Below, piece by piece: positions 31,401-47,227 of a DNA stretch of 53,615 nt (its first letter is position 1; each line of letters opens with the position of its first letter). Location of the stretch: IMG/VR virus record IMGVR_UViG_3300044568_003085. The stretch is one strand, 5' to 3'. Position numbers and translations under genes: made by a program. Source of the stretch: a virus (taxonomy: Duplodnaviria; Heunggongvirae; Uroviricota; Caudoviricetes). The notes beneath the pieces were generated by a model. The model was given only the letters and a program-made list of their open reading frames with translations, ran no database searches and had not been told where the DNA came from.

Positions 31401-33996
31401 GACTTTTTATCATTCATTTGATACATGGATAAAAATTATTTATGAGTTTATTTCTTATAGAGACTATGTATTACAAATTAATAGTCATGGTTTTTATGAT
31501 AATTTTTCAAACATTGTAAATCCAAATGCACCTGGTAGTGTAAAACCATCATTTAATAGATTAATGACTGCAAGTTCTGCAAAATATACAAGCGCAGGTT
31601 TGCAAGATTTTAATTCTAATTTAAGAATCAATAACTTAAACAGAAATAGATTTTTAACATTCCAAACAGTTTCAACAATACCAAATACATCTAATGTAGA
31701 TTCAAGTAGAACTTTAATACCAAATACTAATAATGCTTTTGCATCATATGATAATAATATTTCATCTTATTATGGTGCAATTAAATATGATTATCAAAAT
31801 CAATATGGTCAATTATATGCAATAACACAAATACCAGTAAATTCTTGCGTGTATGATGTTAGTGATGATCTTACTATACCACATAGTTCATCCCAAATAT
31901 TTGGAGGTGATGTTTATATAAATAGATATACAGAAAAAAGTCCATATTATTTTTATAACTCTTGGTTAATTGATGTACCTAATGGTACTGAATGGAATTA
32001 TCAAAATTATGTGAATGGTCCTGAACCAGAATACTGGTTAAATTCTATTAGATATGATGCTTCATTATTTAGTATTTCACTTAATATGGGTGGTAGTGGT
32101 GGTCTTATACCAGAATTTAATTTTAATACACCAGCAGATTATTATAATCTACATGGTTATCAATCAACTGGTTCACCAATATCATCAAGTTTTAAAAATG
32201 CTTGGATGTATTTATCAAATAATAGCATTCGTGACTTTTTTACTGAATCAGAATTAAATCTTGCATTTAGAGATTATGGTGAAAACAGTTGGGAAAAATT
32301 TTATGATCCAATTGGTAATTCTTTTAGTAACATATCATTAATGTTTAGAGCTGATTTAATAACAAAACCTACATACTATGAATATGATTTATCACTTAGC
32401 GCATCTAAATTATACAGTAACTTTTCATCCTGGTCAAATATTCTTCCAAGGGACTATGATCCAGCCATCTATACCACATGTTTTGAATACTACCCAAGAA
32501 GGGTTATCTATTCTTTACAACAACAAGAAGGTCTTAAAAGAGATAACTGGAGGAATTATTTACAATTTAACTACAAAGACTTTGAAGGAAAAGTAAATAC
32601 AATTAAATCTTTAAATGCTCAAGGTTCACTTATTTTATTTGAAGATTCAGAACCTATGCAATTTGTTGGTGTTGATACATTTCAATCTGCTGCAGGTGTA
32701 AAGTATACTACAGGAGATGCAGGATTGTTTCAACAAAATATGCAATCAATTGTCAATGCAGATGATTCATTCCAATACGGTACTTGTATTTCTAGTAAAT
32801 CTGTTATCAATACACCTTTTGGATTATATTGGGTATCCCAATTAACTGGTAAAATTTTAAACTATGCTGGTAGTGGTATTACAGACATATCACTTGGTGG
32901 AATGAAATATTGGTTTTTGGAAAATTTACCATCACCTTTATTGCAACAGTATCCAAATTTTCCATTATATGATAATGTAATAGAAGGTATTGCTGTGCAA
33001 ACAGTATTTGATTCTCAATATGAATTAATATATTTTACTAAAAAAGATTATCAACCAACTGCAGAGTTTGCTGAAATAGCTGACTGTATTGTGTATGTTC
33101 CTGGTCAAGGATATTTTATTAATGAATCATTATGTAATGAAGCACCATTAGTAATAACATGTCCTACTGGTTTTACTTATAATAGTGCTACTCAGTTGTG
33201 TGAAAAAATTACAACATTTGATATTTGTCCTGTAGGTTATACGTATAATGCAATTGATAATCAATGTGAATTAGAAGTAACTGAATTAGCATCATGTGAT
33301 ACTTGTATTCAATTATTAAGTTTTGATTATTCAAATTTTGGAGCATGTAAAACTACTGTATTTAGTGCAGATACTCCAACTGATTTTACTTATATTGATT
33401 GTAGTGGAATTTCTAATACAATAAGTGTTGGAGGTTCTCCAGGTGGTAATGGTTTTGAACAAATTTCTGTTTGTGAACAAGTACCTATTGGTGGTATTAT
33501 TCCACTAAATGATGTTTGTAATGACAACTTAGGATTTGTAACATTTAGATATAGAGATTGTGTAACACAAAACATGGTTGATGTTACTTATAATTTACCA
33601 ACAACAAATGGTGTTGTAACTACATTTACAATTGCAAATCCATTTTGTTTTGTAACTGGCACACTAACAATTATTGCAGGATTAACTGTGACTAATTTAA
33701 CTTATTCACAAAATTGTGGTTCAATACCACCACCTCCACCAACTTTACAACTTGTATCTTTATCAAATTCAAGTGCTGCATCACCATGTCCATATGGAAT
33801 TTCAACATTTCCTATTCAAGTTTGGGCATATCAACCTGTAACTGTTGGTTCAATAATTTATGGAACAAATATTGGTACAACACCTTTTCCTGGTGATGGA
33901 ACTTGGTATTATGTAACTGGTACATTGGCATATAGAATTGACATTGATGGTGTTGTATTAGAAATATTAGATTGTTCACCAATTTTACCAACATAA
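28495..33996 (+). CDS. muzzle / tail stabilisation protein (P22 gp10-like), N-terminal part with insertions
   Basis: F.KGMNKD, W.DN.NP.R..NL, MRDEVY.F, YGQ, D..G.C and GM..WF motifs; ends in a Cys-rich accessory region instead of the usual C-terminal motifs. Confidence 0.8.
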   Translation: MSENTNNTGGAPQLINSFIKGMNKDTTDVFVPESVWINAINAITNTHNGEIGSIGNEQSNLYCETFPYQVIGILNKYKSEWVVYSTDNTSSEIGLFDESTCTYTKLVNDPCLNFSTYNLITGAVKMNYDCTYSAYWQDNLNPDRTMNLDPTRIPYICTPKTITVVKDFYNYVISSPAAPNPCGVGLNVSGGQAPDPPGYFSYNIGLGAIYGLVTLSFNAYSLPDRFVVEYDGVDVIDTGYRGSSGYCVPVVGSGSGTASFMKTTLTTFAILKVYAPCGGTVWKATLGCPDPSAPGTPPLPPPASSSNIFYEDQNGDILEVPTIAPGQSITICALDGSVNDTNVDSIYTINQTTICAQVNEVIIDPNACGEEICTTDLDCDQLRLHPLVTQPCVTVSKSQGSGQLNNGTYQAVIAYSENGIKLTDYSMPSNPQGLWDHSGIGGSIDINISNLDQNFEEFQLVIIGTVNQQSTAKIIGYYSINQTQIHLDLINASLVTADLSIIPLKSVVYEKSEKMFDIGGYLLRSGVTSQPFFNYQPLANNIKVNWVAVQYPSDYYWNGGNEVGYMRDEVYSFFIRWVYKTGARSASFHIPGRSSISSDLALEPLTSPDLIELTRRKRWQVYDTSSITSTATSTRPDGGVIIARGDMAYWESTENYPNSQPEVWGDLCNAPIRHHKMPSNETTHIHNAGGSQINILGVEFTNILQPTDANGNPLTDIIGYEILRGSREGNRSILAKGLFNNMVEYTIQGTTSIKGLFQNYPYNDLRTDPFMHTPGDLIYRQDIFSFHAPENNLVKPYVGSGGYVRIYTEETGTAKFTPELPYQHPQFKFMHEDAFAGAALVSAGVSLLSLMGKKSSNASTTAHTRLSVNTVAVPYIETWAVAVGTGGGGATGGAGVETTTEIPYANFDSTIGTASESGTSSVYSDLINHTTSTATNAATGGASGNIVGSIMSAISIAVTAFAIAGQAAMTFYHSFDTWIKIIYEFISYRDYVLQINSHGFYDNFSNIVNPNAPGSVKPSFNRLMTASSAKYTSAGLQDFNSNLRINNLNRNRFLTFQTVSTIPNTSNVDSSRTLIPNTNNAFASYDNNISSYYGAIKYDYQNQYGQLYAITQIPVNSCVYDVSDDLTIPHSSSQIFGGDVYINRYTEKSPYYFYNSWLIDVPNGTEWNYQNYVNGPEPEYWLNSIRYDASLFSISLNMGGSGGLIPEFNFNTPADYYNLHGYQSTGSPISSSFKNAWMYLSNNSIRDFFTESELNLAFRDYGENSWEKFYDPIGNSFSNISLMFRADLITKPTYYEYDLSLSASKLYSNFSSWSNILPRDYDPAIYTTCFEYYPRRVIYSLQQQEGLKRDNWRNYLQFNYKDFEGKVNTIKSLNAQGSLILFEDSEPMQFVGVDTFQSAAGVKYTTGDAGLFQQNMQSIVNADDSFQYGTCISSKSVINTPFGLYWVSQLTGKILNYAGSGITDISLGGMKYWFLENLPSPLLQQYPNFPLYDNVIEGIAVQTVFDSQYELIYFTKKDYQPTAEFAEIADCIVYVPGQGYFINESLCNEAPLVITCPTGFTYNSATQLCEKITTFDICPVGYTYNAIDNQCELEVTELASCDTCIQLLSFDYSNFGACKTTVFSADTPTDFTYIDCSGISNTISVGGSPGGNGFEQISVCEQVPIGGIIPLNDVCNDNLGFVTFRYRDCVTQNMVDVTYNLPTTNGVVTTFTIANPFCFVTGTLTIIAGLTVTNLTYSQNCGSIPPPPPTLQLVSLSNSSAASPCPYGISTFPIQVWAYQPVTVGSIIYGTNIGTTPFPGDGTWYYVTGTLAYRIDIDGVVLEILDCSPILPT

Positions 33997-34012
33997 TTTA
34001 AAAATAAATAAA

Positions 34013-34957
34013 ATGGCATGTACTTGTTTAAATCCTTCATGTACTCAATCTGTTATTAATGATTTAACATATTGTACTTGTTTAATTGTAGTTCCTGCAA
34101 CAGCATGTCCTGTTGGATGTGAATATAATGCACAAACAAATCAATGTATTTGTACTGAAACAGCAACTCCAATATTTAGTCCAGTTTTGACACCAGTTGA
34201 TATTAGAGATTATTTGGAAGAAATTAGATGGACAATTAGTTATGATCCAAAATTAAAAATATGGTTATCCTTTCATGATTGGCATCCTGAATGGTTAGTG
34301 TCATCTTATGATCATTTTTTAACAATTAAAACTAAATCTGTAGGTGCTGCACTTGAAACAAAAATATGGAGACATAATGTTAGAACAGATAGTTATGCAA
34401 ATTATTATGGTGATAATTATCCATGGGAAATTGAATATCAAGTTGCTACACCTAATACCATTACAACATTAAGAAATATTGAATATACACTTGATGTGTA
34501 TAAATATTTTAATAATGGTAAAGATACTTTTCATAAATTAGATGAAAATTTTGATAGAGTAATTATTTATAATTCTGAACAGATTTCTGGTACATTATTA
34601 CTAAATTTGAAAACTAAAAATAATCCTCTTGATTTATTAAATTATCCATTTCCAACTGCAAATGGTATTAACATTCAATATAGTAAAGAAGAAAATAAAT
34701 TTAGATTAAATCAGTTTTTTGATGTAACTAATGATAGAGGTGAATTTACTGGTGCTACTATACCAATGTGGGTTACTGCATTAGATGGGTATCATAAAGT
34801 TTTAAATCCAGTTAATACTAATTATTTTAAACCTGCTGCTGAACATAAAAAGTTTAGACATTATGGTAATAAAATAATACTACGTAGAAATGTAAGTGGT
34901 GAGAATAAAATGATATTGAAATTTGTTAATAATAAATATTTACTAAGTCCTCGATAA
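34013..34957 (+). CDS. muzzle / tail stabilisation protein, C-terminal part
   Basis: WTISYD....W.SFHDW.P, IW.HN, YG..YP.EIE and N.EQISG.L.L motifs that normally end this family. Confidence 0.8.
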   Translation: MACTCLNPSCTQSVINDLTYCTCLIVVPATACPVGCEYNAQTNQCICTETATPIFSPVLTPVDIRDYLEEIRWTISYDPKLKIWLSFHDWHPEWLVSSYDHFLTIKTKSVGAALETKIWRHNVRTDSYANYYGDNYPWEIEYQVATPNTITTLRNIEYTLDVYKYFNNGKDTFHKLDENFDRVIIYNSEQISGTLLLNLKTKNNPLDLLNYPFPTANGINIQYSKEENKFRLNQFFDVTNDRGEFTGATIPMWVTALDGYHKVLNPVNTNYFKPAAEHKKFRHYGNKIILRRNVSGENKMILKFVNNKYLLSPR

Positions 34958-34958
34958 C

Positions 34959-37900
34959 ATGGCAACTAATAAAGAAACACTATTAAAGTTTATAAATGAT
35001 CAATCACAAAAAGTTCAATCTGATATATCTCAACAAGGATATAAAAGAGATTCACCTTATGTTGATAGACAACAAAATATAATACAAGGACAACCTGGTC
35101 AACCAACGCCTATAACAATGCAAGGAGTGGACAAAACTCTTTTGGGTACAGATGAGTATGGAAATCAACAAATCATGCATCCTGGACAAGAATATGAGTT
35201 TCCTGGTTCACAAGTTACTGAAAGAGAAATGCCACTTGCTCAATATGGTAAACAATTAAATTTTTTACAACCAACTAGTAACAAATTACCAGAAGGTTAT
35301 AAGATTCCTTATAATACTCCTAGTTCTGAATTAGCTATATCTATAGGTGGAGAAAATGGAGAACCTGCATATTTAATTCCTAGTTTTAAATATGGTAAAC
35401 CATTAGCAGATCCTATTGGTGAATTTAGAAAAACAGGTGATCATTTAGGTGGTCCATTTAAAACCTGGCAAGAAGCAGAGAAATGGGAAAAAGAAACAAG
35501 ACATCCTGCAGTTGAAAATAAACAAACAATAATGTTTCCACAACAAGAGTTTAAATATGGTGGACTACTTAATAAAACTATTAAGTGTTCTAATTGTGGT
35601 TGGTCTTGGAAAGCTGCAGATGGTGGTAATGATGTTAATAATTGTCATAAATGTGGTGAAGAAGTGCTTATAAAAGCACAACTTGGTGGTACTAAATTTA
35701 AAATTCCAAATGAAAGAGAACAGTCACTTGTTGTAAAAGATAATATACCAAATTTTCAACCAAATATTAGTACACCTTTGACAGCAAAACAAATTGAACA
35801 AATAAGACTTCAAAAGTTAAAAGAAAAACAAGGAGAGTTACGTACATATGAACCTGAATCATCAGTTAAGCATGCGTTAAACATTGCAACTGCTCCTTTT
35901 ACAGCATTGAAATATAAAATGCAAAGAGGAGAAGTTCCAGATAACTTAGTACAAAGTATTGTTAATAATCCAAAATCAGCAAATGAATATGATGCTGCTT
36001 ATTTAGCTACAATTGCAAGAGCATTACCTTCTCTTGGAATGGCGGCACAACCAATAGTACAACCATTAGTAGCAGCAGGTACTACTGCATTAGGTGCAAA
36101 TGCTTTTAATGTTGCAGGATTAAATGCTGGAAATGCTATTGCAGCAGGATTTGCTACACATGGTGCAATGAATATTTCACCTGATGTTCAATCATGGATT
36201 GATAGACCAACATGGGAAAAAGCAAATAATATAGGATGGGATGCAATAGAAATGATACCTGCAGTTGGTCCAGCTACTAGAACAATTGGAGAAGGTATAA
36301 ACTTGGCAAGTGAAACAGTTGGTCCAGGATTAAATCAAATTAATAACTTGGTAAATAAAAAATATATACCTGGATTAAAACCACGTATGTTACCAGAAAC
36401 ATTAACACCAAAAATAGAATATTTTCCAAATGAGCATACAAGTGTAAAAATAAACTTAAATGATTCAAAAGGCAAATCATTTGGTTATTTAGGATTAGAA
36501 AATAAAAAAGAATGGGCAACTGATGCTGTAGGAAATGTTTTAAGAGATGGTCAAGGAATGCCAATTAAAAAAACTTCTGACTGGTTAAAACCTAGTATGA
36601 TAAGTGTCGATGATTTATTACAAGGAAATAAAACTCAAGATTTATTATATCAAATTGGTGTTGAAGAAGCACAAAAAAAAGGTTTAAAAGGTGTATTAAG
36701 TGGTGAACAATTATTATCACCATCAAAAACTGCAAAAGCACATGAAAGATTTAATAGAGAAATATTTGAACCAAAAAGCGCAAGAGGAAGAGAATGGATT
36801 GATCAAAATGGTTTAACACAACATGACCTTGTTGATTATAATATATCAGGTTTAACAGGTCATACAAATCCAAATGTTATTAATGACTGGATGGCAAATT
36901 ATAAAAATATAAATAAATTTAGACCACGTCAATATTACTCTTCAAAAGACTTAATAAATAAACCTATTGAATTTATAAAAAATAATCCATTAGATGTAAC
37001 AGTAGGTGCAATTTCAGCTGGTGCATTAGGCGGCATGGGTTATGTTCTTCCTCAAGCTTTTTTTGGAGAAAATGTATGGAATAATAAAACAGATGAGCAA
37101 TTACATGATGAATGGGAAAAGAGAGGACAAGAATGGAAAAAAGAAGATGCATTAAATTTACTTAAACAAAGTATTGAAATTCAAAATAAAAATATTGAAA
37201 ATAAATTTTTTAATACTGAAAAAAATAATAAACAACTAGGTGGTGAAAATCAAGAAGTAGTTGATTGGACTAAAAAATATGTTAGTTCTCCTAAGTATAA
37301 AGAACGCATAACAAATTCTGGATATGATAATCCTGATAAACAAATAGATAAGAGATTACAAAATTTAGAAAATGTAAATATTGTAGATACAAATAATCCA
37401 CAAGGTACTGTTTACAAACCAAGTAGAAATACTATTGAAACAAGTTATCCTGCAGATTTAGAATATTACAATATACATAAAAACTTATATCCAACAAGAC
37501 CTAATTTAGATAGTATTGTTGCGCATGAACTTGGTCATTCAGAAACTAATAGACAAAATTCTACTGCATCACTTTTAAACAAGTATGATCGTGGACAATT
37601 AAAAGATAGATTAGTTCCAGAAGCATATGATGATTTACAAGTTTATATTGATAACTATTTAAAACATGATAAGTCACATCATAATGTTATACCTGAAGAA
37701 AATAAATCTGATTTAAATTCTTATAGGTATGATATGCGTAATCAGTATGATGCTGGTACACAGGATTTTACAAAAGAACATTTGCAAAATTCACCAAGTT
37801 CATTTGCAAAAGAAAGATTATTAAAAAATTATTCTGATGAAGATTTAATTTGGTTAATGAATAATATTGCACAAAATAATAATAATGAAACTCAAATACC

Positions 37901-40900
37901 AACTGCGCAATATGGTGGTAGTAGATTTATACCAAAAGATGAAAGAGATAATTCTCGTGTATCAGTTGATAACACAAGAGTAAATAATTTTAATGATGCT
38001 AGATTATTTTCTAAAACTGCAAGAAATAAAACTCAAAAAGAAATTGACAAGGAAATTATTGATGATAGAAATAAAAGAATTGATGCAAGTATAGTTGCAA
38101 ATAAAAAAGGAAATTTATTTACTGATAATGATTGGAGACAACAATTAGCAGATAGAACACAAGCAACAGGAGACAAATTTAGAATATTTCCAAATGATGC
38201 AAATAGTTTTATAGATGATTATATTAATCCAGGAGTATTTATTGGTAACATGGCATCAGGATTAGGTAGTGCTCCATTACGTGCGCAACAAGAAGATTCA
38301 TATATGCCATATGTTACATCAGTTGCTGAACCTGTTGTCATGGGTGCTGTGGGTAAAGTTCTTGAACCATACATTAATAAAGCAGGTAAATTTGTTAAGA
38401 ACCAAATTAAAAAAAACATTGCTGTTCCAATTGCTAAATCAATAGTTAATAAAGTAGATGATGCAGCAATGCAAGAAGCGTTAATAAAATTTTCAAATAA
38501 TCCAAATGTAAGTTCTAAAAATATTATTAAAACAGAAACATTTAGACCAACAGATTTAATTGACACTGAAGGTGCAATAACACCTTTTGCAAAAAGTAAA
38601 TTTATTCAAGGATTATCTGAAGCTGCAAAACCATTAGATATTGAAGTTAAAAAAAGAATTCAAGAACTAAGTAGTCCAAAAGGATATAAAAGATTAGTTG
38701 ATCAAGAATCTAAGTATTTAAGAAACATTGGATTTGAAGGTGACTTAAATGCACAAGCAGATATTAATGCAACTGCAAGATTAAATGAGTTGCATCAATA
38801 TACATCTCCAAATCAAGTTGCTGCAGAAATGAGAAAGTTTAATATAATTACTGATGATACAAATATAGATCAATGGTCTGATAATTCTAATATGTTTGAT
38901 AATGCTTATTATCAGCCACCTAGACTTGCTGAATTTGCTGATGTATATACTTTACCTGGAGAAAATCCCTATGTGTTTAACCAACATGCACCAACTGGTA
39001 CTATTAATTTGCAAAAACCACCACCACAATTAGGTTCTAAAATTATGCCAGGTGAAATAGGAATTGGATATGATTATAAAAATTCAATACCAACAATGCG
39101 ACATGAAATAGGTCACTTTACTTCTCGCGGTAGAGTAATGCCAATTGATATTGAAGCAAGATCATTAGAAACAAAACAGTTTTTAACTCCTCAACAAGAA
39201 GCACAATATAAATATTTTAGAACAGGTAGTAAAGGAAAAGAACCAACAGGATTTTTAAATGAAGCAAGACAATCTATGTTAGATAATAAATTAATTAATA
39301 ATATTTATGATGATATAACACCAGAAATTGTACAAAAAGCACATACTCATTTTACAAATGCACCAAGTTATGAATTTAGATTGCCAAAAAATGCAATACC
39401 TGGTGAAGAACATTTTACAAGTCCACATAGAATTTTTGATTTTATGAATGCATCACCTGAAAATTTTGCAAAGTTATCTACTTTGTTTAATAAACTTCCT
39501 GCTGCAGTTCCAGTAACAGTTGCTGGTAGTGCATTAGGTGCTGGTGCTTTACAACAACAACAATTTGGTGGCACAACAGTTGCTGAACAATATACTCAGA
39601 TAACTGGTAAACCATGGCGTACTGCACATACTGAAGGTTTAACTGATGGTACTGCACAACAAAATCTTGCATTAATTGAAAGATTAAAACAACAACTACA
39701 ACCATTGCAAGAACCAGTTGTTCAAGAAGAAGAAATACAAATAGTTGAGGAACCTGTGCAACCTGCAATGTTTAATGAAGATCAATTACATCGCAAAGAT
39801 CTTGCAAAACGTGTTGTTGAAATTGCAGAAAATAGAATTAAAAATAATAAGTATATTGATGTTCCAGATGACCTAGTTAAAATTGCACTGTCACGTGGTG
39901 AATTTGCCAACAGTTGTATTGGTGGTGTATGTGATGTTTTTAAAGAAGCAGGTGTTATGAAAAGTGTAGACTGGTCTAATACTCATTTTGCTAAAAATGC
40001 AAAAGAATATGGATTTACTGCAAACAATGGATGGGGAATTAAAAGTATTGGTAATCTTGAACCTGGCGATTTATTACAACGTAATAATCGTACAAATAAA
40101 GATGGTGTTTATTATCCTGGTCATTCTCAAATTTATTTAGGTAAAGATGCACATGGTAAATATAGATTTTTTGATAATGCTAATAAAGAAGAAAGAACAT
40201 ATTATGAAGATGATATAAAAACTTTATTAGATCCAGCAAGAAAAAAAACTGAACCATCAGCATCAATCTATAAAGTTAATCCTTATACAAATGATAATCC
40301 ATACAGTCTTACACCAGAAGAACAAATAAGAGCAGTTGAAAAAAGTAAAATGATTAAGTCTGACTCAACATCACCTGCATCATATAATTGGAAAATTGCA
40401 GATAATGCAAAAAATTATAATACAGATACAAAAGTTGTAATGGATAAATTTATAGATTTTGCAAATGACAATGATAAAATAAATGAATTAGTTAAAAAAA
40501 CTGGTAAATCAAAAGAAGAAATTAATGATTCATTACTAAATGTATTTGGTGAATTTGGTCAAGAAAATAACTGGACTACTTCAAAAGGCAAAGGTGTAGG
40601 TTCTAGATTAGAAAACATTGGTGAAAGTATTTTAACTGCATTTGGTATTGGTAAAAATTTATCAGTAGGACCTGGTCAAATTAAATTTAATCAAATACCA
40701 GTAGATGTTAGAAAATCATTTAATATAAATTCACCAAATGATTTATATGATATAGAAAAAGTTTTGCCTTTGATGACAGCTCTTGATTTAAAAGATAAAG
40801 AAGTTCTGACAAACTGGGGTAAGAATGATACTTTGTCTTCAAAACTTTTTGGATGGAAAAGAGATAAATATGAAGATGGATATGGTAATGTAACTAGTGG

Positions 40901-41447
40901 AGGTTTTACTGCTGATGACTTATCTGCAGATACTGATGGATCAAGATTAAATAATACAGTTGGTAGATATTCACCATATCTTCGTAATCAATATTCTTCA
41001 ATTGCAAATAATACAGTTACAACTGGACAAAATGATTATATACCATTTAATGAAAACACACAACAAAATTATGTACCAGGTAGATTTAATTCTGGAAATG
41101 AGGATACTATGATTCAATCATACATAAGAGATCCTGGTAGTTATCCATATAAAGTAGAATCTAATTGGAGAAATAATCTTGAAAGAAATGTTATTAAAAA
41201 TGAAGAAGGTGCAGTTGAATTACCTGAAATTGTTGTTGGTAAAAGAAAACTAAAAAAAGAAATGGGGGGATTGTTATATAATGATAAAGACAACGCATTA
41301 CCACACAATGAATCTATAGATAAATATCTTGCACCAGAACAAACATTAATAAACTTTATGACAAAGATGCAAAAAGAAAATGGTGGCAGTGTTCCTTTTG
41401 GTGAATATTACAATGCAAATATAAAAAATCCAAGAAAAAAATCGTAA
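34959..41447 (+). CDS. giant multidomain internal virion (cargo) protein: Zn ribbon, GNAT-like, two HExxH zincins, DUF3597-like, NlpC/P60-CHAP-like, SLT/lysozyme-like
   Basis: CSNC...CHKC (35586-35657); HELGH (37524); HEIGH (39102); GTAQQNLALI; SC...PGDLL...GHSQIY (Cys 39915, His 40122); QEN...SVGPGQIK (40560-40690). Confidence 0.8.
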   Translation: MATNKETLLKFINDQSQKVQSDISQQGYKRDSPYVDRQQNIIQGQPGQPTPITMQGVDKTLLGTDEYGNQQIMHPGQEYEFPGSQVTEREMPLAQYGKQLNFLQPTSNKLPEGYKIPYNTPSSELAISIGGENGEPAYLIPSFKYGKPLADPIGEFRKTGDHLGGPFKTWQEAEKWEKETRHPAVENKQTIMFPQQEFKYGGLLNKTIKCSNCGWSWKAADGGNDVNNCHKCGEEVLIKAQLGGTKFKIPNEREQSLVVKDNIPNFQPNISTPLTAKQIEQIRLQKLKEKQGELRTYEPESSVKHALNIATAPFTALKYKMQRGEVPDNLVQSIVNNPKSANEYDAAYLATIARALPSLGMAAQPIVQPLVAAGTTALGANAFNVAGLNAGNAIAAGFATHGAMNISPDVQSWIDRPTWEKANNIGWDAIEMIPAVGPATRTIGEGINLASETVGPGLNQINNLVNKKYIPGLKPRMLPETLTPKIEYFPNEHTSVKINLNDSKGKSFGYLGLENKKEWATDAVGNVLRDGQGMPIKKTSDWLKPSMISVDDLLQGNKTQDLLYQIGVEEAQKKGLKGVLSGEQLLSPSKTAKAHERFNREIFEPKSARGREWIDQNGLTQHDLVDYNISGLTGHTNPNVINDWMANYKNINKFRPRQYYSSKDLINKPIEFIKNNPLDVTVGAISAGALGGMGYVLPQAFFGENVWNNKTDEQLHDEWEKRGQEWKKEDALNLLKQSIEIQNKNIENKFFNTEKNNKQLGGENQEVVDWTKKYVSSPKYKERITNSGYDNPDKQIDKRLQNLENVNIVDTNNPQGTVYKPSRNTIETSYPADLEYYNIHKNLYPTRPNLDSIVAHELGHSETNRQNSTASLLNKYDRGQLKDRLVPEAYDDLQVYIDNYLKHDKSHHNVIPEENKSDLNSYRYDMRNQYDAGTQDFTKEHLQNSPSSFAKERLLKNYSDEDLIWLMNNIAQNNNNETQIPTAQYGGSRFIPKDERDNSRVSVDNTRVNNFNDARLFSKTARNKTQKEIDKEIIDDRNKRIDASIVANKKGNLFTDNDWRQQLADRTQATGDKFRIFPNDANSFIDDYINPGVFIGNMASGLGSAPLRAQQEDSYMPYVTSVAEPVVMGAVGKVLEPYINKAGKFVKNQIKKNIAVPIAKSIVNKVDDAAMQEALIKFSNNPNVSSKNIIKTETFRPTDLIDTEGAITPFAKSKFIQGLSEAAKPLDIEVKKRIQELSSPKGYKRLVDQESKYLRNIGFEGDLNAQADINATARLNELHQYTSPNQVAAEMRKFNIITDDTNIDQWSDNSNMFDNAYYQPPRLAEFADVYTLPGENPYVFNQHAPTGTINLQKPPPQLGSKIMPGEIGIGYDYKNSIPTMRHEIGHFTSRGRVMPIDIEARSLETKQFLTPQQEAQYKYFRTGSKGKEPTGFLNEARQSMLDNKLINNIYDDITPEIVQKAHTHFTNAPSYEFRLPKNAIPGEEHFTSPHRIFDFMNASPENFAKLSTLFNKLPAAVPVTVAGSALGAGALQQQQFGGTTVAEQYTQITGKPWRTAHTEGLTDGTAQQNLALIERLKQQLQPLQEPVVQEEEIQIVEEPVQPAMFNEDQLHRKDLAKRVVEIAENRIKNNKYIDVPDDLVKIALSRGEFANSCIGGVCDVFKEAGVMKSVDWSNTHFAKNAKEYGFTANNGWGIKSIGNLEPGDLLQRNNRTNKDGVYYPGHSQIYLGKDAHGKYRFFDNANKEERTYYEDDIKTLLDPARKKTEPSASIYKVNPYTNDNPYSLTPEEQIRAVEKSKMIKSDSTSPASYNWKIADNAKNYNTDTKVVMDKFIDFANDNDKINELVKKTGKSKEEINDSLLNVFGEFGQENNWTTSKGKGVGSRLENIGESILTAFGIGKNLSVGPGQIKFNQIPVDVRKSFNINSPNDLYDIEKVLPLMTALDLKDKEVLTNWGKNDTLSSKLFGWKRDKYEDGYGNVTSGGFTADDLSADTDGSRLNNTVGRYSPYLRNQYSSIANNTVTTGQNDYIPFNENTQQNYVPGRFNSGNEDTMIQSYIRDPGSYPYKVESNWRNNLERNVIKNEEGAVELPEIVVGKRKLKKEMGGLLYNDKDNALPHNESIDKYLAPEQTLINFMTKMQKENGGSVPFGEYYNANIKNPRKKS

Positions 41448-41460
41448 ATTAGTAATGTAA
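41444..41460 (+). promoter_or_regulatory. recurring motif copy (GTAAATTAGTAATGTAA)
   Basis: Overlaps the stop of the 2162-aa ORF; 36 nt before the next ATG. Confidence 0.5.
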
Positions 41461-41496
41461 TCATGTGATAATTAACATGTAACTAAATATTTTAAT

Positions 41497-43647
41497 ATGC
41501 AAAATTCAAATCAAAACAGATGTCCTGAGTGTGAAAAAAATAGTGAGTCATTATTATATAGACAAACTATGGAAGAAGGTGGTGAATGGATACAAAGTGC
41601 TATTAAACATCCAGGTAGATGTACACCAGGTTCTCCTAATTATGATTGTCCAGAAGGAAGTCCACAATGGAATCTTGCACAAAGATTTAAACATGGTGAT
41701 TTACATAAAGAAGAAACAGGTGGCATGATTAAACGTGCTGATGGTAGTTATTCTAAAAGAGGATTGTGGGATAATATAAGAGCAAATGCAGGATCAGGAA
41801 AAAAACCAACATCAGAAATGTTAGAACAAGAAAGAAAAATAAATAAAGCACAACAAGGTGGAGAACAACGTGACCAAATGATGCAAATCATTATGGCATA
41901 TGCTCAATTGCATCAAGTTAAACCAGAAGAAGTAATTCAACAAATACAAAAATTATCTCCTGAAGAACAACAACAAGCAATGCAAACTATGGTCACTGAA
42001 TTACAAGGTGATCAAGGTGGACAACCTGAATCTCAAGTTGCAGAACAAACTGAATATCCACAAGAAGGTGGTTTTGCCAATGGAGGAAATATTCCAGATG
42101 GTAATCCCTATGGTGGCAATGAGTATAGATATGATGATGGTGGTAGTTATCCAGTTTCTGGTATGACAGGTATGGGTGATCGTGCAGGCAGAGGTTTACC
42201 ATATGCAGTACCAATGATAAATGCAACAGTAGGTGATGCACCAATATTTGAACCTTTCAAAGCAATAACTGGTTACATGGGAGCAGCAACAAGTTTAGCA
42301 GGTGCAGGTTTAGGTTTTGGTAAAGCAGCACAATGGGCAGGTAATAAATTATTACCAGAAGGCAAATTTAAAAGTGGATTTAATAACGTATTAAATGTTG
42401 CAAATGATGTTACTAAAGGTATAATGGATTTTGGTTCAGATTTAAATACTCAAGGTTTGTATAGTAATCAAATGCAAAAACAATTACAACAAAGTACTAG
42501 ACCATTAGATCAAAAATATATTAGAGAAGCAAGAAATGAAAAAGGTCCAAACTTGTATTATAGTAAACCAGTTAATGGTCCTGAGTATCAAGGTCAGTAT
42601 GATACGATGACAGCAGAATATGGTGGATATATTTCTCCTGTTGATATGTATGCAAATGGTGGATATACTGTAAGAAAATCAAATGATCGTAAAGGAAAAA
42701 CGCATGTTGTTACAGGACCTGATGGTACAAAAAAATATTTTGGTGATCCTAACATGGGAGAACGAAGTAAATCTAAAAATGGTAAAGATGCTTTTTATGC
42801 AAGACACGCAACCAACTTAAAAAATAATCCATATTTTAGAGCATACGCTAGATCTACATGGGAAGATGGAGGTACACTTCCACAAGCTCAATTTGGATTT
42901 AGTAATCCACAAGGACCTCCTTATGCACAACAAAATAATGCACTTGATCCAAATCAATTTCCACAAAATAATACAACAGATGCTTTTACAAGATCTCAAG
43001 GTCAACAATCATATGATCAATATAATAATGCAGTAAGATCTTTTTCAAATCCATTTGATACAAATAACATGTCTCAATTTGATTTAAATAATTTTAATAA
43101 AAATAAAATACCATTTCCAAAACCACCACAAGCACCAGAAGATTATACTGTTGATGAATCACAATTTCCACAAAGACAAGGAAATGATATGGCGTCAATG
43201 ATAAATCAAGATAATCAAATAGTTGGAAAGGAATTTGAAACTGAAAACAATTTAAATCCATTATCAGGTACACAAGCAAAGAGTACAGATTTTAATGGTA
43301 TGGATTATGCACAAAAAGCAAATGCTGGTGCTGGTGCTTTTTTAAATTATTTACAATATAAAAATAATAGAAGTAGAAAAAGAGATTATGATGCAATGTT
43401 AAAAAGAAAAAATAATACTGATTATGGTATTGCAAACAATACACCTAGTCAAGGTAACTATACTTTGAATGTAGGATTTCAAAACTTTCAACCTGGTAAA
43501 ACTACACCTATACAATCTGTTACAGGTAAATATGGTGGTACATTAAATAGAAAACAATATAAATCAGGTGGTGAATATCAAGTGTCAGAAGATGAGTTAT
43601 TACAACTTATGCAAAATGGTGCTGAAATTGAATTTATTAATAAATAA
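41497..43647 (+). CDS. modular internal virion (cargo) protein made of small GG-delimited domains
   Basis: More than 10 xxxGG junctions bounding small basic modules (WIQSAIKHPG..., GLWDNIR..., K.FGDP...FYARH). Confidence 0.75.
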   Translation: MQNSNQNRCPECEKNSESLLYRQTMEEGGEWIQSAIKHPGRCTPGSPNYDCPEGSPQWNLAQRFKHGDLHKEETGGMIKRADGSYSKRGLWDNIRANAGSGKKPTSEMLEQERKINKAQQGGEQRDQMMQIIMAYAQLHQVKPEEVIQQIQKLSPEEQQQAMQTMVTELQGDQGGQPESQVAEQTEYPQEGGFANGGNIPDGNPYGGNEYRYDDGGSYPVSGMTGMGDRAGRGLPYAVPMINATVGDAPIFEPFKAITGYMGAATSLAGAGLGFGKAAQWAGNKLLPEGKFKSGFNNVLNVANDVTKGIMDFGSDLNTQGLYSNQMQKQLQQSTRPLDQKYIREARNEKGPNLYYSKPVNGPEYQGQYDTMTAEYGGYISPVDMYANGGYTVRKSNDRKGKTHVVTGPDGTKKYFGDPNMGERSKSKNGKDAFYARHATNLKNNPYFRAYARSTWEDGGTLPQAQFGFSNPQGPPYAQQNNALDPNQFPQNNTTDAFTRSQGQQSYDQYNNAVRSFSNPFDTNNMSQFDLNNFNKNKIPFPKPPQAPEDYTVDESQFPQRQGNDMASMINQDNQIVGKEFETENNLNPLSGTQAKSTDFNGMDYAQKANAGAGAFLNYLQYKNNRSRKRDYDAMLKRKNNTDYGIANNTPSQGNYTLNVGFQNFQPGKTTPIQSVTGKYGGTLNRKQYKSGGEYQVSEDELLQLMQNGAEIEFINK

Positions 43648-43679
43648 CAAAAAGTCTATCATAATAGGAAAAAACAAAT

Positions 43680-43703
43680 TATATTTGTAAATTCTAAATG
43701 TAA
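43680..43703 (+). promoter_or_regulatory. -7 element TATATTTG fused to recurring motif GTAAATTCTAAATGTAA
   Basis: TATATTTG at 43680-43687; motif at 43687-43703; 38 nt before the ATG at 43742. Confidence 0.6.
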
Positions 43704-43741
43704 TAGGTTTACCGATTTTTAACTTTAAACTCTAAAAGTTT

Positions 43742-46700
43742 ATGTATAATATTAGAATAAAACAACTACCTAAAACAGGTGAACAGAGAAATTATAGTTT
43801 AGTAGATAGAAATGATTTATATATAAAAGTCAATCCATTAAACAGTGACACTAATGTAAAAAATACTATTAGTGCAGTACCACGTGAACAAGCAAACATA
43901 GAAGCTGAAGGTGGAGAAACTGTTGTTGGTGATATCAATGGTGATGGATTTTTAGAACACAATACTATTGTAGGTAAAAAACATACACAAGGTGGTGTTC
44001 CTTTAGACATAGCACCTGGTTCATTTATATTTTCTGATACAAAAAAATTAAAAATTAAAGATCCTGAAGTTTTAAAATTGTTTGGTGTTGGTCCAGTTAA
44101 AGGTGGAGTTACACCAGCAACAATTGCAAAAAAATATCAGACAAATAATTATATGAATGTTTTGAAGTCTGATGATACAGATGAAATTTCAAAACGTACA
44201 GCATCTAAAATGTTAGAAAACAATTTAGAGAAACTTGGAATGCTTGCATTAGTTCAAGAATCTATGAAAGGATTTCCTGATGGTATACCAGCAATTGCAG
44301 AATCTGTTATGGCAGGTCTTCAAGGACAAATGCAACCAGGTCAAGAACAAGGTGAAGGTGTTGCTGATGAAGTAATGGAAGATCAAGAAGAACCAGGTGA
44401 ACAAGAAGATGAAATGCGTTATGGTGGTGGTTTATATAAAGCACAAAGTGGTGGTAATCAGACAGAATATGTAGGAACTGATTTTCAAGGTCGTAGACAA
44501 ACACGAGCAGATGTTGATAGAATGATGGCGTTGCAAAGACAACAAAATGCAAATAGTAATGCATCATCTAATTCTATGCAATCAGTTACTCCTAGACAAG
44601 TAGAAAATAATGTAGAACAAGATACAATTAATACAGAACCAATAGAATTAGAAAATGTATTTGTTCCAAACAACAATAGAAAATATTCAAATAAAGTAAC
44701 TGAAAATGGTAATCCTATTCCAGGGTTTAAATTCTGGAATGGAATAACACCTGTTACCGTAACACAAGTACATTCAGAGTATGGACAAAATAATCCTGAA
44801 TCACCATATATTGAATTAAGTAATGGTGAAAAACTTAGTAAAAAAGCATTTCAACAATTACTTACAAAAGGTTCATATAATGATATACATGGTGGGGTTG
44901 GTGATGCTTATACTATAAATCAAAACATAGAAAAAAGAAGAATTAAAGACTCAAGTGGTACAGAAATAAATGGTTTTGATATTTATTCAGGTGATAAATT
45001 AAATTTTAAAGGTAATGACTATACAGTAGTAAATCCAAATGCTGATATGTCAAGAGGTTATTATAATACTTGGAAACCATTAAGAGATACTTTTGATAAT
45101 ACACAAGGAATTGTACAAGTATATAATAACAAAACTAAAAAATATGAATTTTTAGAAGCTGAGGATTTAGGTGACGCGTACAGATTTGATAAATCACAAA
45201 TTCCTGTTAGTCCAAATGATCAATTCAGAAATATATACAATACAAATTTAAATAAAACACGAAGAATAACTAATCCAGGTTATTCAACTGTTCAATCTGC
45301 ATACGCACCAGCACCAACGAATTCTGTTTATACGCCTCAAGGTAGAACTGTTCCACAAGGTAGAGTAGTTGATACAACAACAACTCCTCAAGATAGACTT
45401 CCACAAGAAGACAATGCTGGTTTACCTGAGATACCACAAACAACAGTGACACCACAAGCAAGACAGCAACCTCCACAACAGGTAACAACTCCACGTGCAA
45501 ATACGCCACGCAGAAATGTTCAACAACCTGTGCAACAACAAGATAATATTCAAACTACTTATTCAAATGAATCTTTTGAATATGGTGGTGATTTGCAGTA
45601 TGCTCAAGTAGGTGCTCAAGTTAAAAAGAAAGTTGTTAAAAAAGAAACTTCATCTGTAACTGGTAATACAAGAGTTACATATTCAGATGGTACAACTGAA
45701 ATTATTCCAGCTGATGTATCATATGATACAGCTGATGAAGAATTAAGAAAACAAGTTGGTGAAAAATATAATATTACTGATTTACAAGAACAATATAGAT
45801 TTAAAAATAAAACTGTAGGTCCTCAAACTCAAAAGTCAGGATACAAAGTTGATCCAGAATCTGGATTTTTATATAATGAAGCTGCTGGTGCACCAAGACC
45901 TGGTGCAGGTGGTTTACAAAATTATATGGAAATTCATAAAGAAGCTGTTGAATCTTATCCTGGAGGTGCTGAAAAATGGAAACAAGATATGATCAATGCA
46001 AAAGGAAAAGAAAATCCTGCAATGACACACTTGTTAAATTATGAAAACACTGCTGTTGGTACAAGAGCTGATGGAAAACAATATGTAGACTTAACTAAAA
46101 GAGGTGCTCTAGTTCCTGGAGTTGAAAACTTTAACTTACCTGGTATTAGTAAAAAACCTATTCTGCCTCCTCCTCCTGGAAAAAAACAAGCATTTACATG
46201 TGTAGATGGTGTTGTGTCTACTGTTGAGTATGGCGAAAGTGAAACGATGCCATCAGGTGCTTATGCTTCTCGTGCAGAAGCTGAGGCTGCATGTATACCT
46301 AATAAAAAAATTACTATACCTCCACCAGTGCAAAAAAGAAGACCTTGGTGGATACAAGATTCAGTAGCATTTGCTGCTGACATGACTGATTCTGTAACTA
46401 AATATGATCCAGCTTTGCAAAGAGTTGAAGCAGAAATTCCTGATTATGTATTAAAAGATCCTGCTGCAAGACTTGCTGCTTTAAAAGAACAAGAGTCTAG
46501 AAGACAAGAAGGTTTATTTAGTAGTACTGCAGGTAATGTAGCAGGTGCATCTATGGTTGGACCTGGTGACAGAGAACTAGCAGCATCAAGAGATATTATT
46601 GGTGATATTGAAAATCAAAATGTTGATATAGTAAATCAAGCATTACCAAGAAATGCTCAGATAATTAATCAAGCAAACTTATTAAAAGGTCAAGCATTAC

Positions 46701-47227
46701 AAAAATATATTGCAGAGTCTGCAACAGCTAATCAACAATACGATAATGCTAGACGCGCACTTAAAAATAGACAAGTTGGTTCATGGATGAATGCAACTAC
46801 TAACTGGATGGCACATAAACAAATGGAAGATGTATTATATCCAAATGTAATGATAGATTCTATTACAGGTGATGTAACACAAACTCGTGGCAATAGACAA
46901 ATGTTTGATGAATATGGTAGACCAGTTTATGATCCTTATATTAATCCATCTGGAAAAAGTTCAAGATCTGGAACATCATATGAAGATAGAGTAAAATATT
47001 GGAAAAGTCAAGGACATACAACAGATCAAGCACATGCTGCAGCAAATGCAGAAATCAATGGTGCTGGTACTAGAACAGCGTCAACTGACGAAACTAAAAA
47101 AAATCAACCAATAATTGCACCTATGATTCAAAATTATAGACAAGTAAAATATGGTGGTTATATTAAAAAATATGGTGGAGTAGTTAATGATTATGGAGCA
47201 CTACCATTATACTTTTTTGAAGATTAA
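43742..47227 (+). CDS. internal virion (cargo) protein
   Basis: ANIEAEGGE...G..H..GGV...FIFSD N-terminal domain recalled from crAss cargo proteins; P/Q/T-rich linker; KYGG repeats at the C-terminus. Confidence 0.75.
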   Translation: MYNIRIKQLPKTGEQRNYSLVDRNDLYIKVNPLNSDTNVKNTISAVPREQANIEAEGGETVVGDINGDGFLEHNTIVGKKHTQGGVPLDIAPGSFIFSDTKKLKIKDPEVLKLFGVGPVKGGVTPATIAKKYQTNNYMNVLKSDDTDEISKRTASKMLENNLEKLGMLALVQESMKGFPDGIPAIAESVMAGLQGQMQPGQEQGEGVADEVMEDQEEPGEQEDEMRYGGGLYKAQSGGNQTEYVGTDFQGRRQTRADVDRMMALQRQQNANSNASSNSMQSVTPRQVENNVEQDTINTEPIELENVFVPNNNRKYSNKVTENGNPIPGFKFWNGITPVTVTQVHSEYGQNNPESPYIELSNGEKLSKKAFQQLLTKGSYNDIHGGVGDAYTINQNIEKRRIKDSSGTEINGFDIYSGDKLNFKGNDYTVVNPNADMSRGYYNTWKPLRDTFDNTQGIVQVYNNKTKKYEFLEAEDLGDAYRFDKSQIPVSPNDQFRNIYNTNLNKTRRITNPGYSTVQSAYAPAPTNSVYTPQGRTVPQGRVVDTTTTPQDRLPQEDNAGLPEIPQTTVTPQARQQPPQQVTTPRANTPRRNVQQPVQQQDNIQTTYSNESFEYGGDLQYAQVGAQVKKKVVKKETSSVTGNTRVTYSDGTTEIIPADVSYDTADEELRKQVGEKYNITDLQEQYRFKNKTVGPQTQKSGYKVDPESGFLYNEAAGAPRPGAGGLQNYMEIHKEAVESYPGGAEKWKQDMINAKGKENPAMTHLLNYENTAVGTRADGKQYVDLTKRGALVPGVENFNLPGISKKPILPPPPGKKQAFTCVDGVVSTVEYGESETMPSGAYASRAEAEAACIPNKKITIPPPVQKRRPWWIQDSVAFAADMTDSVTKYDPALQRVEAEIPDYVLKDPAARLAALKEQESRRQEGLFSSTAGNVAGASMVGPGDRELAASRDIIGDIENQNVDIVNQALPRNAQIINQANLLKGQALQKYIAESATANQQYDNARRALKNRQVGSWMNATTNWMAHKQMEDVLYPNVMIDSITGDVTQTRGNRQMFDEYGRPVYDPYINPSGKSSRSGTSYEDRVKYWKSQGHTTDQAHAAANAEINGAGTRTASTDETKKNQPIIAPMIQNYRQVKYGGYIKKYGGVVNDYGALPLYFFED

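What the first reader, a model, noticed from the sequence alone, without database searches (positions are those of the whole stretch)
34959..47227. Cargo proteins built as beads on a string, with modules separated by a recurring double-glycine motif: possible GG-processed phage polyproteins or capsid-loading tag
Seen: three consecutive giant ORFs carry about 20 copies of a short motif ending in GG. Examples are EFKYGG, KAQLGG, KQLGG, TAQYGG, QQFGG, KEMGG and KENGG in 34959; MEEGG, EETGG, AQQGG, FANGG, YDDGG, AEYGG, YANGG, WEDGG, GKYGG and YKSGG in 41497; MRYGG, AQSGG, FEYGG and VKYGGYIKKYGG in 43742. The motif sits at domain boundaries: both zincin segments of 34959 are closed by it (AQYGG, QQFGG), and each small module of 41497 starts right after one. 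It is much less evident in 47251 and 49900. Established: adenovirus protease cleaves (M/I/L)xGG|x and ASFV pS273R cleaves polyproteins at GG|x. Inference: the motif is either a maturation-protease site that releases many separate effectors for injection, or a prohead-interior binding tag. The DNA core AATATGGTGG also recurs and could help shuffle modules. I recall similar motifs in other Bacteroidota phage proteins but not a described function.
Basis: partly seen in the sequence, partly recalled or inferred. Interest (0 to 1): 0.85.

Follow-up and report, generated by a model that had tools for sequence, protein, structure and literature searches.

The report
Conserved Gly-Gly seam in crassvirus cargo proteins
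Three large proteins that this marine crAss-like phage probably packs into its particle and injects are chains of swappable modules joined by one short conserved peptide ending in Gly-Gly; the peptide is real and widespread, but whether it is a hinge, a docking tag or a cutting site is still unproven.

Summary
Plain GG is barely above what the glycine content predicts (38 vs 26.6). The specific signature, hydrophobic or aromatic-x-x-G-G or [YFMW]GG, often followed by x-L-P-K-[AH]-Q-x-G, is 3- to 7-fold enriched in the three ORFs only.

- It is invariant at fixed sites in hundreds of homologues.
- It lies in low-confidence linkers of the P0003 model.
- It marks the exact points where modules are inserted, deleted, swapped or split into separate genes.
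- It also brackets the two cryo-EM-ordered pieces of cargo protein C1 (gp45) of Bacteroides phage crAss001.

The DNA word AATATGGTGG is a by-product of these codons.

The function is not settled.
- I favour a flexible hinge that presents short docking peptides (0.42). One copy (AFGG, 425-428) is built into the solved portal-bound domain, and conserved tails follow a terminal GG in 31% of family proteins.
- Cleavage by a co-packaged zincin remains a live rival (0.28).
- No C5, C48, C39 or S78 protease was found.
- I found no published description of the motif.

This scan has met the same motif on other DNA at least four times (e1-5348088, e1-5400143, e1-1732483, e1-1832987), with the same open question.

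The parts
34959..41447 (+). P0001, a 2162-aa mosaic cargo protein with two HExxH (zincin-like) segments at residues 856 and 1382
   Evidence: phrog_24249 'tail protein' matches residues 743-978; no Pfam family
35550..35564 (+). Junction motif FKYGG (P0001 198-202)
   Evidence: 28 homology breakpoints cluster at 189-211
35673..35690 (+). Junction motif KAQLGG (P0001 239-244)
   Evidence: 23 breakpoints cluster at 233-274, median 246
37230..37244 (+). Junction motif KQLGG (P0001 758-762), at the start of the first HExxH module
   Evidence: 14 breakpoints cluster at 749-770
37905..37919 (+). Junction motif AQYGG (P0001 983-987), at the end of the first HExxH module
   Evidence: 22 breakpoints at 980-995; alignments to distant homologues end here, and 16 of 30 have a GG within 15 aa
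39558..39572 (+). Junction motif QQFGG (P0001 1534-1538), at the end of the second HExxH module
   Evidence: 10 breakpoints; 50 of 60 distant homologues have a GG at the alignment end, and many stop 6 aa later with WLNKY[KN]
41256..41270 (+). Junction motif KEMGG (P0001 2100-2104); in a relative it coincides with a gene boundary
   Evidence: 7 breakpoints; in L011 the equivalent is two genes, and the first stops at this point
41497..43647 (+). P0002, a 716-aa cargo protein made of small basic modules, predicted largely disordered
   Evidence: AF2 mean pLDDT 36
41710..41862 (+). EETGG, then module A (MIKRADGSYS..EMLEQ), then KAQQGG (P0002 72-122)
   Evidence: The module is present or absent exactly between the two GGs in the family alignment. 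It is shared at 60-88% identity by proteins of many architectures
42061..42144 (+). Linker with four tandem copies, EGG-FANGG-NPYGG-YDDGG (P0002 189-216)
42613..42897 (+). AEYGG, YISPVDMYANGG, module B (YTVRKSND..STWEDGG), then TLPQAQFG (P0002 373-467)
   Evidence: The insertion lies exactly between AEYGG and xLPKAQFG; other family members read ..AEYGG-xLPKAQFG directly
43525..43644 (+). GKYGG..YKSGG followed by an invariant 24-aa C-terminal tail, EYQVSEDELLQLMQNGAEIEFINK (P0002 677-716)
   Evidence: G680, G681, G691, G692 and nearly every tail residue are invariant in 25 homologues
43742..47227 (+). P0003, a 1161-aa cargo protein with four predicted folded domains (about 40-180, 316-504, 629-852, 863-1050)
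44414..44455 (+). Full bipartite motif MRYGGGLYKAQSGG (P0003 225-238) in the linker after domain 1
   Evidence: G228 and G229 are invariant in 64 sequences; a motif is present here in 109 of 121; pLDDT is below 50 over 181-244
45575..45613 (+). Full bipartite motif FEYGGDLQYAQVG (P0003 612-624), before domain 3
   Evidence: G616 is invariant and G615 at least 90% conserved; homologues read ..GG-x-LPKHQG; pLDDT is below 50 over 615-628
47144..47224 (+). VKYGGYIKKYGG plus the C-terminal tail VVNDYGALPLYFFED (P0003 1135-1161)
   Evidence: A motif is present in 77 and 30 of 121 homologues; pLDDT is below 50 over 1107-1161; the family's tails after the last GG are conserved

Best explanation
The motif is a conserved seam of crassvirus ejected (cargo) proteins. 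The double glycine is a flexible hinge, and a hydrophobic residue sits three or one positions before it. The hinge delimits modules that fold, or stay unfolded, independently.

The short peptides next to or between the hinges would serve as docking peptides. Internally these are x-L-P-K-[AH]-Q-x or W-L-N-x-Q. At C-termini they are WL[ND]KY, xMYLPWxxLD, NIGKLRKFF, xFGYLPNFF and, here, VVNDYGALPLYFFED.

These peptides would hold an extended multi-module chain on the inside of the particle (portal wing, tail barrel, or other cargo). The chain could then be loaded, stored and threaded out module by module.

On this reading the chain is not cut at the seam inside the virion.

Shown: the motif is real, conserved, lies in linkers and at module or gene boundaries, and occurs in the solved crAss001 C1 protein.

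Inferred: the hinge-plus-docking role.
For: 1. Specific enrichment in these three ORFs only.
2. Fixed sites are invariant within otherwise variable linkers in 64-121 homologues of P0003.
3. All five linker copies of P0003 fall in pLDDT<50 segments, which make up 32% of the chain.
4. Modules are inserted or deleted exactly between GGs. Homology breakpoints of P0001 cluster on GGs (p 0.006). A gene boundary in relative L011 maps to KEMGG.
5. crAss001 gp45 carries the motif at 207-210, 262-265, 330-333, 425-428 and 560-563. GG is kept at aligned sites 209, 427 and 562 in the gut C1 homologues that align there, and at 263 in most.
6. The only ordered gp45 pieces are 214-245 (tail barrel) and 425-552 (portal wing). 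Each is bracketed by copies, and the second starts with A425-F-G-G-W-L-N. That GG is therefore uncut and ordered next to the portal (PMC10172136).
7. 134 of 428 family proteins end within 12 aa of a GG, 2- to 4-fold over expectation in each of four families. Their tails are conserved and family-specific, and they resemble the internal peptides. A discarded remnant would not be conserved.
8. The motif is absent from the RNA-polymerase-type cargo proteins, including the fused 4014-aa ORF and crAss001 gp46, gp47, gp49 and gp50. It is therefore not a general polyprotein code.
Against: - No binding of any motif peptide has been demonstrated.
- Contacts of gp45 425-431 could not be inspected here, so their order may reflect the domain fold rather than docking.
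- HExxH modules travel in the same particles (P0001 residues 856 and 1382; crAss001 gp47 residue 2157). The literature already proposes zincin processing of such proteins (PMC5512222; bioRxiv 10.1101/2020.03.07.982082).
- In the published crAss001 gel peak lists, gp45 (90.8 kDa) is not detectable above decoy level in bands 3-9. In those same bands proteins of 77-277 kDa are readily identified. This is weak evidence, but it points towards fragmentation or poor recovery.
Confidence: 0.42

Rival explanations
1. Cleavage site. A co-packaged zincin-like metallopeptidase (the HExxH modules of P0001, or gp47 in crAss001) or a host envelope protease cuts after, or near, the GG. This would happen either in the head or after ejection, and would release the cell-wall enzymes, small basic modules and membrane pieces as separate effectors.
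For: - The motif sits in accessible linkers at every module boundary.
- Both HExxH modules end in it, in cis, in most distant homologues.
- Modules joined by a seam in one phage are separate genes in another, so covalent linkage is not required.
- Zincin processing of polyvalent and crAss polyproteins has been proposed (PMC5512222; 10.1101/2020.03.07.982082).
- gp45 is not seen at full length in the crAss001 gel peak lists (weak evidence).
Against: - The gp45 model includes A425-F-G-G-W, continuous across one site.
- Conserved 5-12-aa tails after a terminal GG, and copies within the first 16 residues of 23 of 143 zincin-family proteins, make little sense as cut-off remnants.
- The residue after GG is not constrained: M, E, Y, S and T are all common.
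- The fused 4014-aa RNA-polymerase polyprotein lacks the motif.
- No GG-specific protease family was found.
- The giant crAss001 proteins run at full size (PMC6235969).
Confidence: 0.28
2. Passive linker or module cap with no dedicated reader. Each shuffling cassette carries its own C-terminal helix or strand stop (hydrophobic-x-x-GG). Breakpoints accumulate there only because linkers tolerate recombination.
For: - Indels and breakpoints fall exactly at GG.
- The residue directly before GG varies widely in the gut C1 family: Y, F, D, L, K, E, N.
- The linkers are predicted disordered.
Against: - The GG pair and the hydrophobic position are invariant over hundreds of sequences at 30-50% identity, while the surrounding linker is hypervariable.
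- The conserved second half (x-LPK[AH]Q-x-G) and the conserved terminal tails imply selection on more than flexibility.
- Other multi-domain ORFs of the same genome lack the motif.
Confidence: 0.18
3. DNA-level element. The recurring word AATATGGTGG acts as a recombination or Chi-like signal that drives module shuffling, and the peptide is secondary.
For: The word occurs 8 times against 0.19 expected, all on the plus strand. TGGTGG is the core of the enterobacterial Chi site (from my own knowledge).
Against: - TAT is 92% of Tyr codons and GGT 66% of Gly codons. All nine YGG are TAT GGT GGN, against a per-site expectation of 0.61.
- 73 of 79 plus-strand GGTGG are in-frame Gly-Gly.
- The peptide is conserved in homologues down to about 30% protein identity.
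- The motif copies that flank an inserted module share only GGTGG at the DNA level.
Confidence: 0.03

Closest known systems
Cargo protein 1 (C1, gp45) of Bacteroides phage crAss001 (PDB 7QOG chain M; Pfam PF25725 crAss_CARG1; Bayfield et al. 2023, PMC10172136)
   Same: - The gene lies directly after the muzzle gene and is virion-packed.
- It has a Gly-rich membrane-like segment and a long, largely unresolved chain.
- It carries the same [FY]-[AS]-x-G-G motif at five sites, and these bracket the only ordered segments.
- Some members of the P0002 module family carry PF25725.
   Different: - There is no pairwise similarity to P0002 or P0003, and no PF25725 hit in either.
- The comparison of P0003 domain 1 with a CARG1-bearing relative is only suggestive (hhalign E 0.052).
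- Here the equivalent material is spread over two or three genes.
- The paper does not mention the motif or any processing.
Polyvalent proteins of phages and conjugative elements (Iyer, Burroughs, Anand, de Souza, Aravind 2017; PMC5512222)
   Same: - Giant injected multi-module proteins with zincin-like HExxH modules.
- Cell-wall enzymes and ADP-ribosyltransferase modules occur in relatives (PF01464, PF03734, PF18760).
- Extensive module shuffling, and proposed autoprocessing.
   Different: That work defines domains, not junctions. Its text contains neither 'glycine' nor 'linker'. Here the junction itself is a conserved peptide.
GG-directed viral maturation proteases (adenovirus adenain, family C5, (M/I/L)xGG|x; ASFV pS273R; from my own knowledge) and C39 double-glycine leader peptidases
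   Same: A hydrophobic residue a few positions before a Gly-Gly, in polyprotein-like substrates.
   Different: - No protease of these families is present.
- The hydrophobic position is -3 or -1 rather than -4.
- One site is demonstrably uncut in a virion.
Cargo-loading peptides of encapsulins (short C-terminal peptides after a flexible linker that bind the lumen of an HK97-fold shell; from my own knowledge)
   Same: A flexible Gly-rich hinge followed by a short conserved hydrophobic peptide at the extreme C-terminus of proteins that are packed inside an HK97-fold shell (Crass_capsid hit).
   Different: - There is no sequence similarity.
- No binding has been shown.
- The crassvirus motif is mostly internal and repeated.

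Membership tests
Crassvirales virion and cargo gene block | Crassvirus capsid and tail-ring proteins lie upstream, with the giant cargo genes after the muzzle gene | tested here: met
The gene order is the same in relative L011.
Crassvirus cargo protein 1 (PF25725 crAss_CARG1) | A match to the portal-bound CARG1 domain | tested here: inconclusive
   No Pfam hit for P0002 or P0003, even at E<=1 for P0003 1-215. hhalign of the P0003 family against a CARG1-bearing relative gives E 0.052 over 78 columns. Foldseek of the whole model found nothing.
Crassvirus cargo protein 1 (PF25725 crAss_CARG1) | Physically packed in the virion and bound to the portal | not testable with these tools
   This needs virion proteomics or cryo-EM of this uncultured phage.
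Polyvalent proteins (Iyer et al. 2017) | Several unrelated effector or enzymatic modules in one polypeptide of a phage, including a zincin-like metallopeptidase | tested here: inconclusive
   Mosaic architecture is shown by breakpoints. There are two HExxH motifs, and 812 relatives of that region. No curated family model matches any P0001 module, so the enzymatic assignments rest on motifs only.
GG-processed viral polyproteins (adenain C5, Ulp1-like C48, C39, prohead protease S78) | A cognate protease encoded by the virus | tested here: not met
   PF00770, PF02902, PF03412 and PF04586 all give no match at E<=1 in the 73.5-kb record, which is 61% complete. No peptidase family appears in 20 head and tail ORFs. 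The rest of the genome was not available.
GG-processed viral polyproteins (adenain C5, Ulp1-like C48, C39, prohead protease S78) | Cleavage after the Gly-Gly in mature particles | tested here: inconclusive
   Only indirect data from crAss001 exist. The gp45 model spans G427-G428-W429 (PMC10172136). gp45 is not detectable at full-length size in the MALDI lists of bands 3-9. The two observations point in opposite directions.

The most novel reading that the evidence does not exclude
The seam is a cargo-handling code of Crassvirales. GG-hinged short peptides, internal (x-LPKAQ-x, WLNxQ) and C-terminal (WLNKY, MYLPWxxLD, NIGKLRKFF, GYLPNFF), would be address tags. They would load envelope-acting ejection proteins onto defined sites of the portal, tail barrel or shell, and would set the order in which modules leave. 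This would be analogous to encapsulin cargo-loading peptides, but inside a tailed-phage head. A variant of the same reading is that the tags double as the long-sought cut sites of the packaged zincin after ejection.
Probability: 0.3. Interest if true: 0.8.

Novelty: new variant of a known kind. Interest (0 to 1): 0.6.

Why it matters
Crassviruses are among the most abundant phages of the human gut and are common in the sea. How they load megadaltons of protein into the head, and how they push it through a narrow tail, is unknown.

A short, invariant, easily mutated peptide at every module joint gives a direct experimental handle. It also flanks exactly the parts of C1 that are ordered in the only solved crassvirus.
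- It can be searched for in existing mass-spectrometry data.
- It can be mutated.
- It can be fused to a reporter.

It also gives annotators a practical rule for cutting these unannotatable giant ORFs into modules.

If it proves to be a loading tag, it could be used to pack foreign proteins into phage heads. If it proves to be a cut site, it would be the first defined processing site for 'polyvalent' injected proteins.

Tried and rejected
- **Nucleotide and tblastn searches of the INPHARED phages** with the region, P0002 and P0003: no match. An IMG/VR pattern scan with P0003 confirmed nothing.
- **Pfam on whole proteins and on seven P0001 pieces:** nothing above noise. PDB sequence search of P0001: nothing.
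- **AlphaFold2 of P0002** with 25 sequences: mean pLDDT 36, so it is unusable for domain mapping.
- **Foldseek of the whole P0003 model against the PDB:** no match at E<=0.001, and gp45 was not recovered. The model has several domains, so this is not evidence against similarity.
- **Complex prediction of the portal (6349-8550) with P0003 1-180:** the verdict was 'no answer' (score 0.00, controls not run). It counts neither for nor against binding.
- **Peptide-mass fingerprinting of crAss001 gel bands** from the published peak lists. The method works: gp50+gp47, gp49(+gp44), gp20, gp26+gp22, gp22+gp25, gp25 and gp23 are identified in bands 3-9. gp45 stays at decoy level, and the lists for bands 11-13 were cut from the stored file while band 10 held only 7 peaks and was not analysed, so a fragment search was not possible.
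- **Literature searches** for cleavage or processing of crassvirus cargo found no description of the motif.
- **Rejected readings:** chance or composition and a DNA-level Chi-like or recombination signal.
Full report
**What the window is.** All large ORFs lie on the plus strand. Pfam identifies a crassvirus major capsid protein (12716-14359) and tail ring proteins 2 and 1 (26708-27379, 27388-28488). PHROG virion-structural families match 28495-34957. Earlier notes on the same genome place a 4014-aa virion RNA polymerase just beyond the window, and I see that ORF in the 73.5-kb record. The three ORFs of the finding therefore sit where crAss001 encodes its cargo proteins: after the muzzle and before the RNA-polymerase-type giants (PMC10172136). 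A 101.8-kb relative has the same order. The phage is far from any cultured one, with no blastn or tblastn match in the phage collection.

**Is the observation more than chance?** As written ('a short motif ending in GG'), only marginally.
- GG counts are 13, 13 and 12 against 10.2, 8.4 and 7.9 in shuffles. Pooled, they are 38 vs 26.6 (p 0.017).
- The residue before GG is Tyr in 9 of 38 cases against 1.25 expected (0 of 3000 shuffles).
- The broader pattern, [FYMW]xxGG or [FYMW]GG, occurs 17 times against 5.6. The 22 other ORFs of the window show 11 against 10.3.
- The following RNA-polymerase-type ORFs, including the 4014-aa one, have essentially none.
- Several copies continue as x-[LY]-[PY]-[KQ]-[AH]-Q-x-G(G). 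Examples are MRYGGGLYKAQSGG, FEYGGDLQYAQVG, WEDGGTLPQAQFG, IKAQLGG and PTAQYGG. This second half also occurs only in these three ORFs.

**Conservation.** P0003 has about 1200 relatives.
- In an alignment of 121, a motif copy stands at the column of residue 228 in 109 sequences, of 615 in 61, of 1138 in 77 and of 1145 in 30. The surrounding linkers are hypervariable, with occupancy 0.1-0.3 just after the first site.
- In a 64-sequence alignment, G228, G229 and G616 are invariant.
- Homologues show the same two-part peptide, for example FEYGGTLPKHQGT and MRYGGMAMYQKAGT.

**Module boundaries.** Four independent lines agree.
1. *P0002 family alignment.* A Cys-rich module, the 45-aa module A, the 70-aa module B, a 270-aa insert and further pieces are present or absent exactly between consecutive GGs. 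For example..AEYGG|xLPKAQFG becomes ..AEYGG|YISPVDMYANGG|module B..WEDGG|TLPQAQFG. Modules A and B recur at 60-88% identity in more than a thousand proteins of other architectures. Some of these carry SLT, YkuD, ART-PolyVal or the crassvirus CARG1 domain, and the modules are always flanked by such copies.
2. *P0001 homology breakpoints.* Against 43 mosaic relatives, the breakpoints form 14 well-supported clusters. Six lie within 10 residues of a GG (201, 243, 761, 986, 1537, 2103), against 13% expected (p 0.006).
3. *An exhaustive search with P0001 700-1600 (812 hits).* Alignments to the second HExxH module end at ...Q-x-x-GG in 50 of 60 distant proteins.
4. *The AlphaFold2 model of P0003 (mean pLDDT 66).* It has four confident domains. 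All five linker copies fall in segments below pLDDT 50, and five of the six other GGs are inside domains.

In relative L011 the counterpart of P0001 is two genes. The first stops where P0001 has KEMGG, and the second ends with the same tail as P0001. A seam in one phage is thus a gene boundary in another.

**The DNA word.** AATATGGTGG occurs 8 times against 0.19 expected.
- In these ORFs TAT is 92% of Tyr codons and GGT 66% of Gly codons. K, Q and E codons end in AA.
- 73 of 79 plus-strand GGTGG are in-frame Gly-Gly.
- Copies flanking an inserted module share only GGTGG.
- The word is therefore a consequence of the peptide, not a shuffling device.

**Link to a solved virus.** crAss001 gp45 (cargo protein 1, PDB 7QOG chain M) carries SAYGG (206-210), FAEGGG (260-265), KAFGG (329-333), NAFGG (424-428) and FAYGG (559-563).
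- gp46, gp47, gp49 and gp50 carry no [YFW]GG.
- In nine gut crassviruses, GG is kept at the aligned sites 209, 427 and 562 wherever a homologue aligns there, and at 263 in most. The consensus is [FY]-[AS]-x-G-G, with a variable residue just before the glycines.
- The cryo-EM paper resolves only residues 214-245 (inner wall of the tail barrel) and 425-552 (on the portal wing).
- Each ordered piece is bracketed by motif copies. The second begins with A425-F-G-G-W-L-N.
- The paper does not mention the motif, a protease or cleavage.

**What does it do?**

*Cleavage.* This is plausible in principle.
- HExxH modules are packed alongside the motif-bearing proteins.
- Zincin processing has been proposed for polyvalent proteins (PMC5512222) and for fused crAss polyproteins (10.1101/2020.03.07.982082).
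- No C5, C48, C39 or S78 protease is present in the 61%-complete record.
- I tested the one public data set that bears on this, the MALDI peak lists of the crAss001 virion gel (PMC6235969, supplementary file 14). Fingerprinting identifies gp50+gp47, gp49(+gp44), gp20, gp26+gp22, gp22+gp25, gp25 and gp23 in bands 3-9. The giant proteins therefore run at full size. gp45 never exceeds decoy level at any size from about 270 to 70 kDa. Lists for bands 11-13 were truncated in the stored file and band 10 held only seven peaks that I did not analyse. This is weak evidence that could reflect fragmentation or simply poor recovery.

*Against cutting in the virion.*
- The gp45 model runs through G428-W429.
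- 134 of 428 family proteins end within 12 residues of a GG: 50 vs 11.5, 37 vs 20.7, 11 vs 3.8 and 36 vs 11.6 expected in the four families.
- Their tails are conserved and family-specific: WL[ND]KY[NK], xMYLPWx[DE]L[DE], NIGKLRKFF, xFGYLPNFF. P0002's own 24-residue tail is invariant.
- These tails resemble the internal peptides. Compare GG-WLNKYN with gp45 GG-WLNTQGG and with GG-TLPKHQG.
- Copies also occur within the first 16 residues of 23 of 143 zincin-family proteins.
- The residue after GG is unconstrained.
- Conserved peptides hanging from a glycine hinge at both termini and between modules look more like presented binding peptides than like scissile sites.

I therefore rank hinge-plus-docking first (0.42), cleavage second (0.28), a passive linker cap third (0.18) and a DNA signal last (0.03). 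Nothing here shows binding.

**Novelty.** The protein classes are known: crassvirus cargo proteins and polyvalent proteins. I found no publication describing the conserved junction peptide. Within this scan it is not new. The same motif was reported on other genomes at least four times (e1-5348088, e1-5400143, e1-1732483, e1-1832987), and I reached the same reading before seeing those notes.
- the terminal-tail statistics;
- the gut C1 family alignment;
- the gene-boundary case;
- the codon explanation of the DNA word;
- the protease screens;
- the gel peak-list test.

Noticed in passing
window 15732-15860 (+): A 42-aa ORF between head genes ends in SMKYGGMKGGKKC. It is a free-standing basic peptide carrying the motif, and it holds the eighth copy of AATATGGTGG. 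Whether it is expressed or conserved was not checked.
   Followed up: partly
window 43573-43644 (P0002 693-716): The 24 C-terminal residues, EYQVSEDELLQLMQNGAEIEFINK, come directly after SGG. They are practically invariant in 25 homologues that are otherwise only 42-90% identical. This acidic amphipathic tail is a better candidate for a loading or partner-binding signal than the GG itself.
   Followed up: partly
window 43760-43786 (P0003 7-15): The N-terminus of P0003 reads IKQLPKTGEQ, with P10, G13 and Q15 invariant in 64 homologues. It resembles the x-LPKAQ-x-G half of the seam. Pfam gives only a sub-threshold hit to the LPXTG anchor model (E 0.058).
   Followed up: partly
window 41497-43647: With 25 homologues, AlphaFold2 gives P0002 a mean pLDDT of 36. 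Only a Gly/Ala-rich helical hairpin (about 249-315) and the small module B show any structure. The protein may be stored largely unfolded, like the unresolved parts of crAss001 gp45.
   Followed up: no
L011:700-8315 against window 34959-41447: In a 101.8-kb relative the counterpart of P0001 is two genes (1725 and 811 aa). This window's single 2162-aa ORF is a fusion or rearrangement of these, joined at the KEMGG seam.
   Followed up: partly
window 34959-47227: The first glycine of a GG pair is GGT in 32 of 38 cases, against 66% GGT overall. This may reflect avoidance of the Shine-Dalgarno-like GGAGG. It is a small effect that adds to the recurrence of the DNA word.
   Followed up: no
crAss001 gel data (PMC6235969, supplementary file 14): Fingerprinting shows that the bands are numbered from the top and identifies their main proteins. 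Cargo proteins gp45 and gp46 are not detectable in bands 3-9, although gp45 should be as abundant as the portal.
   Followed up: partly
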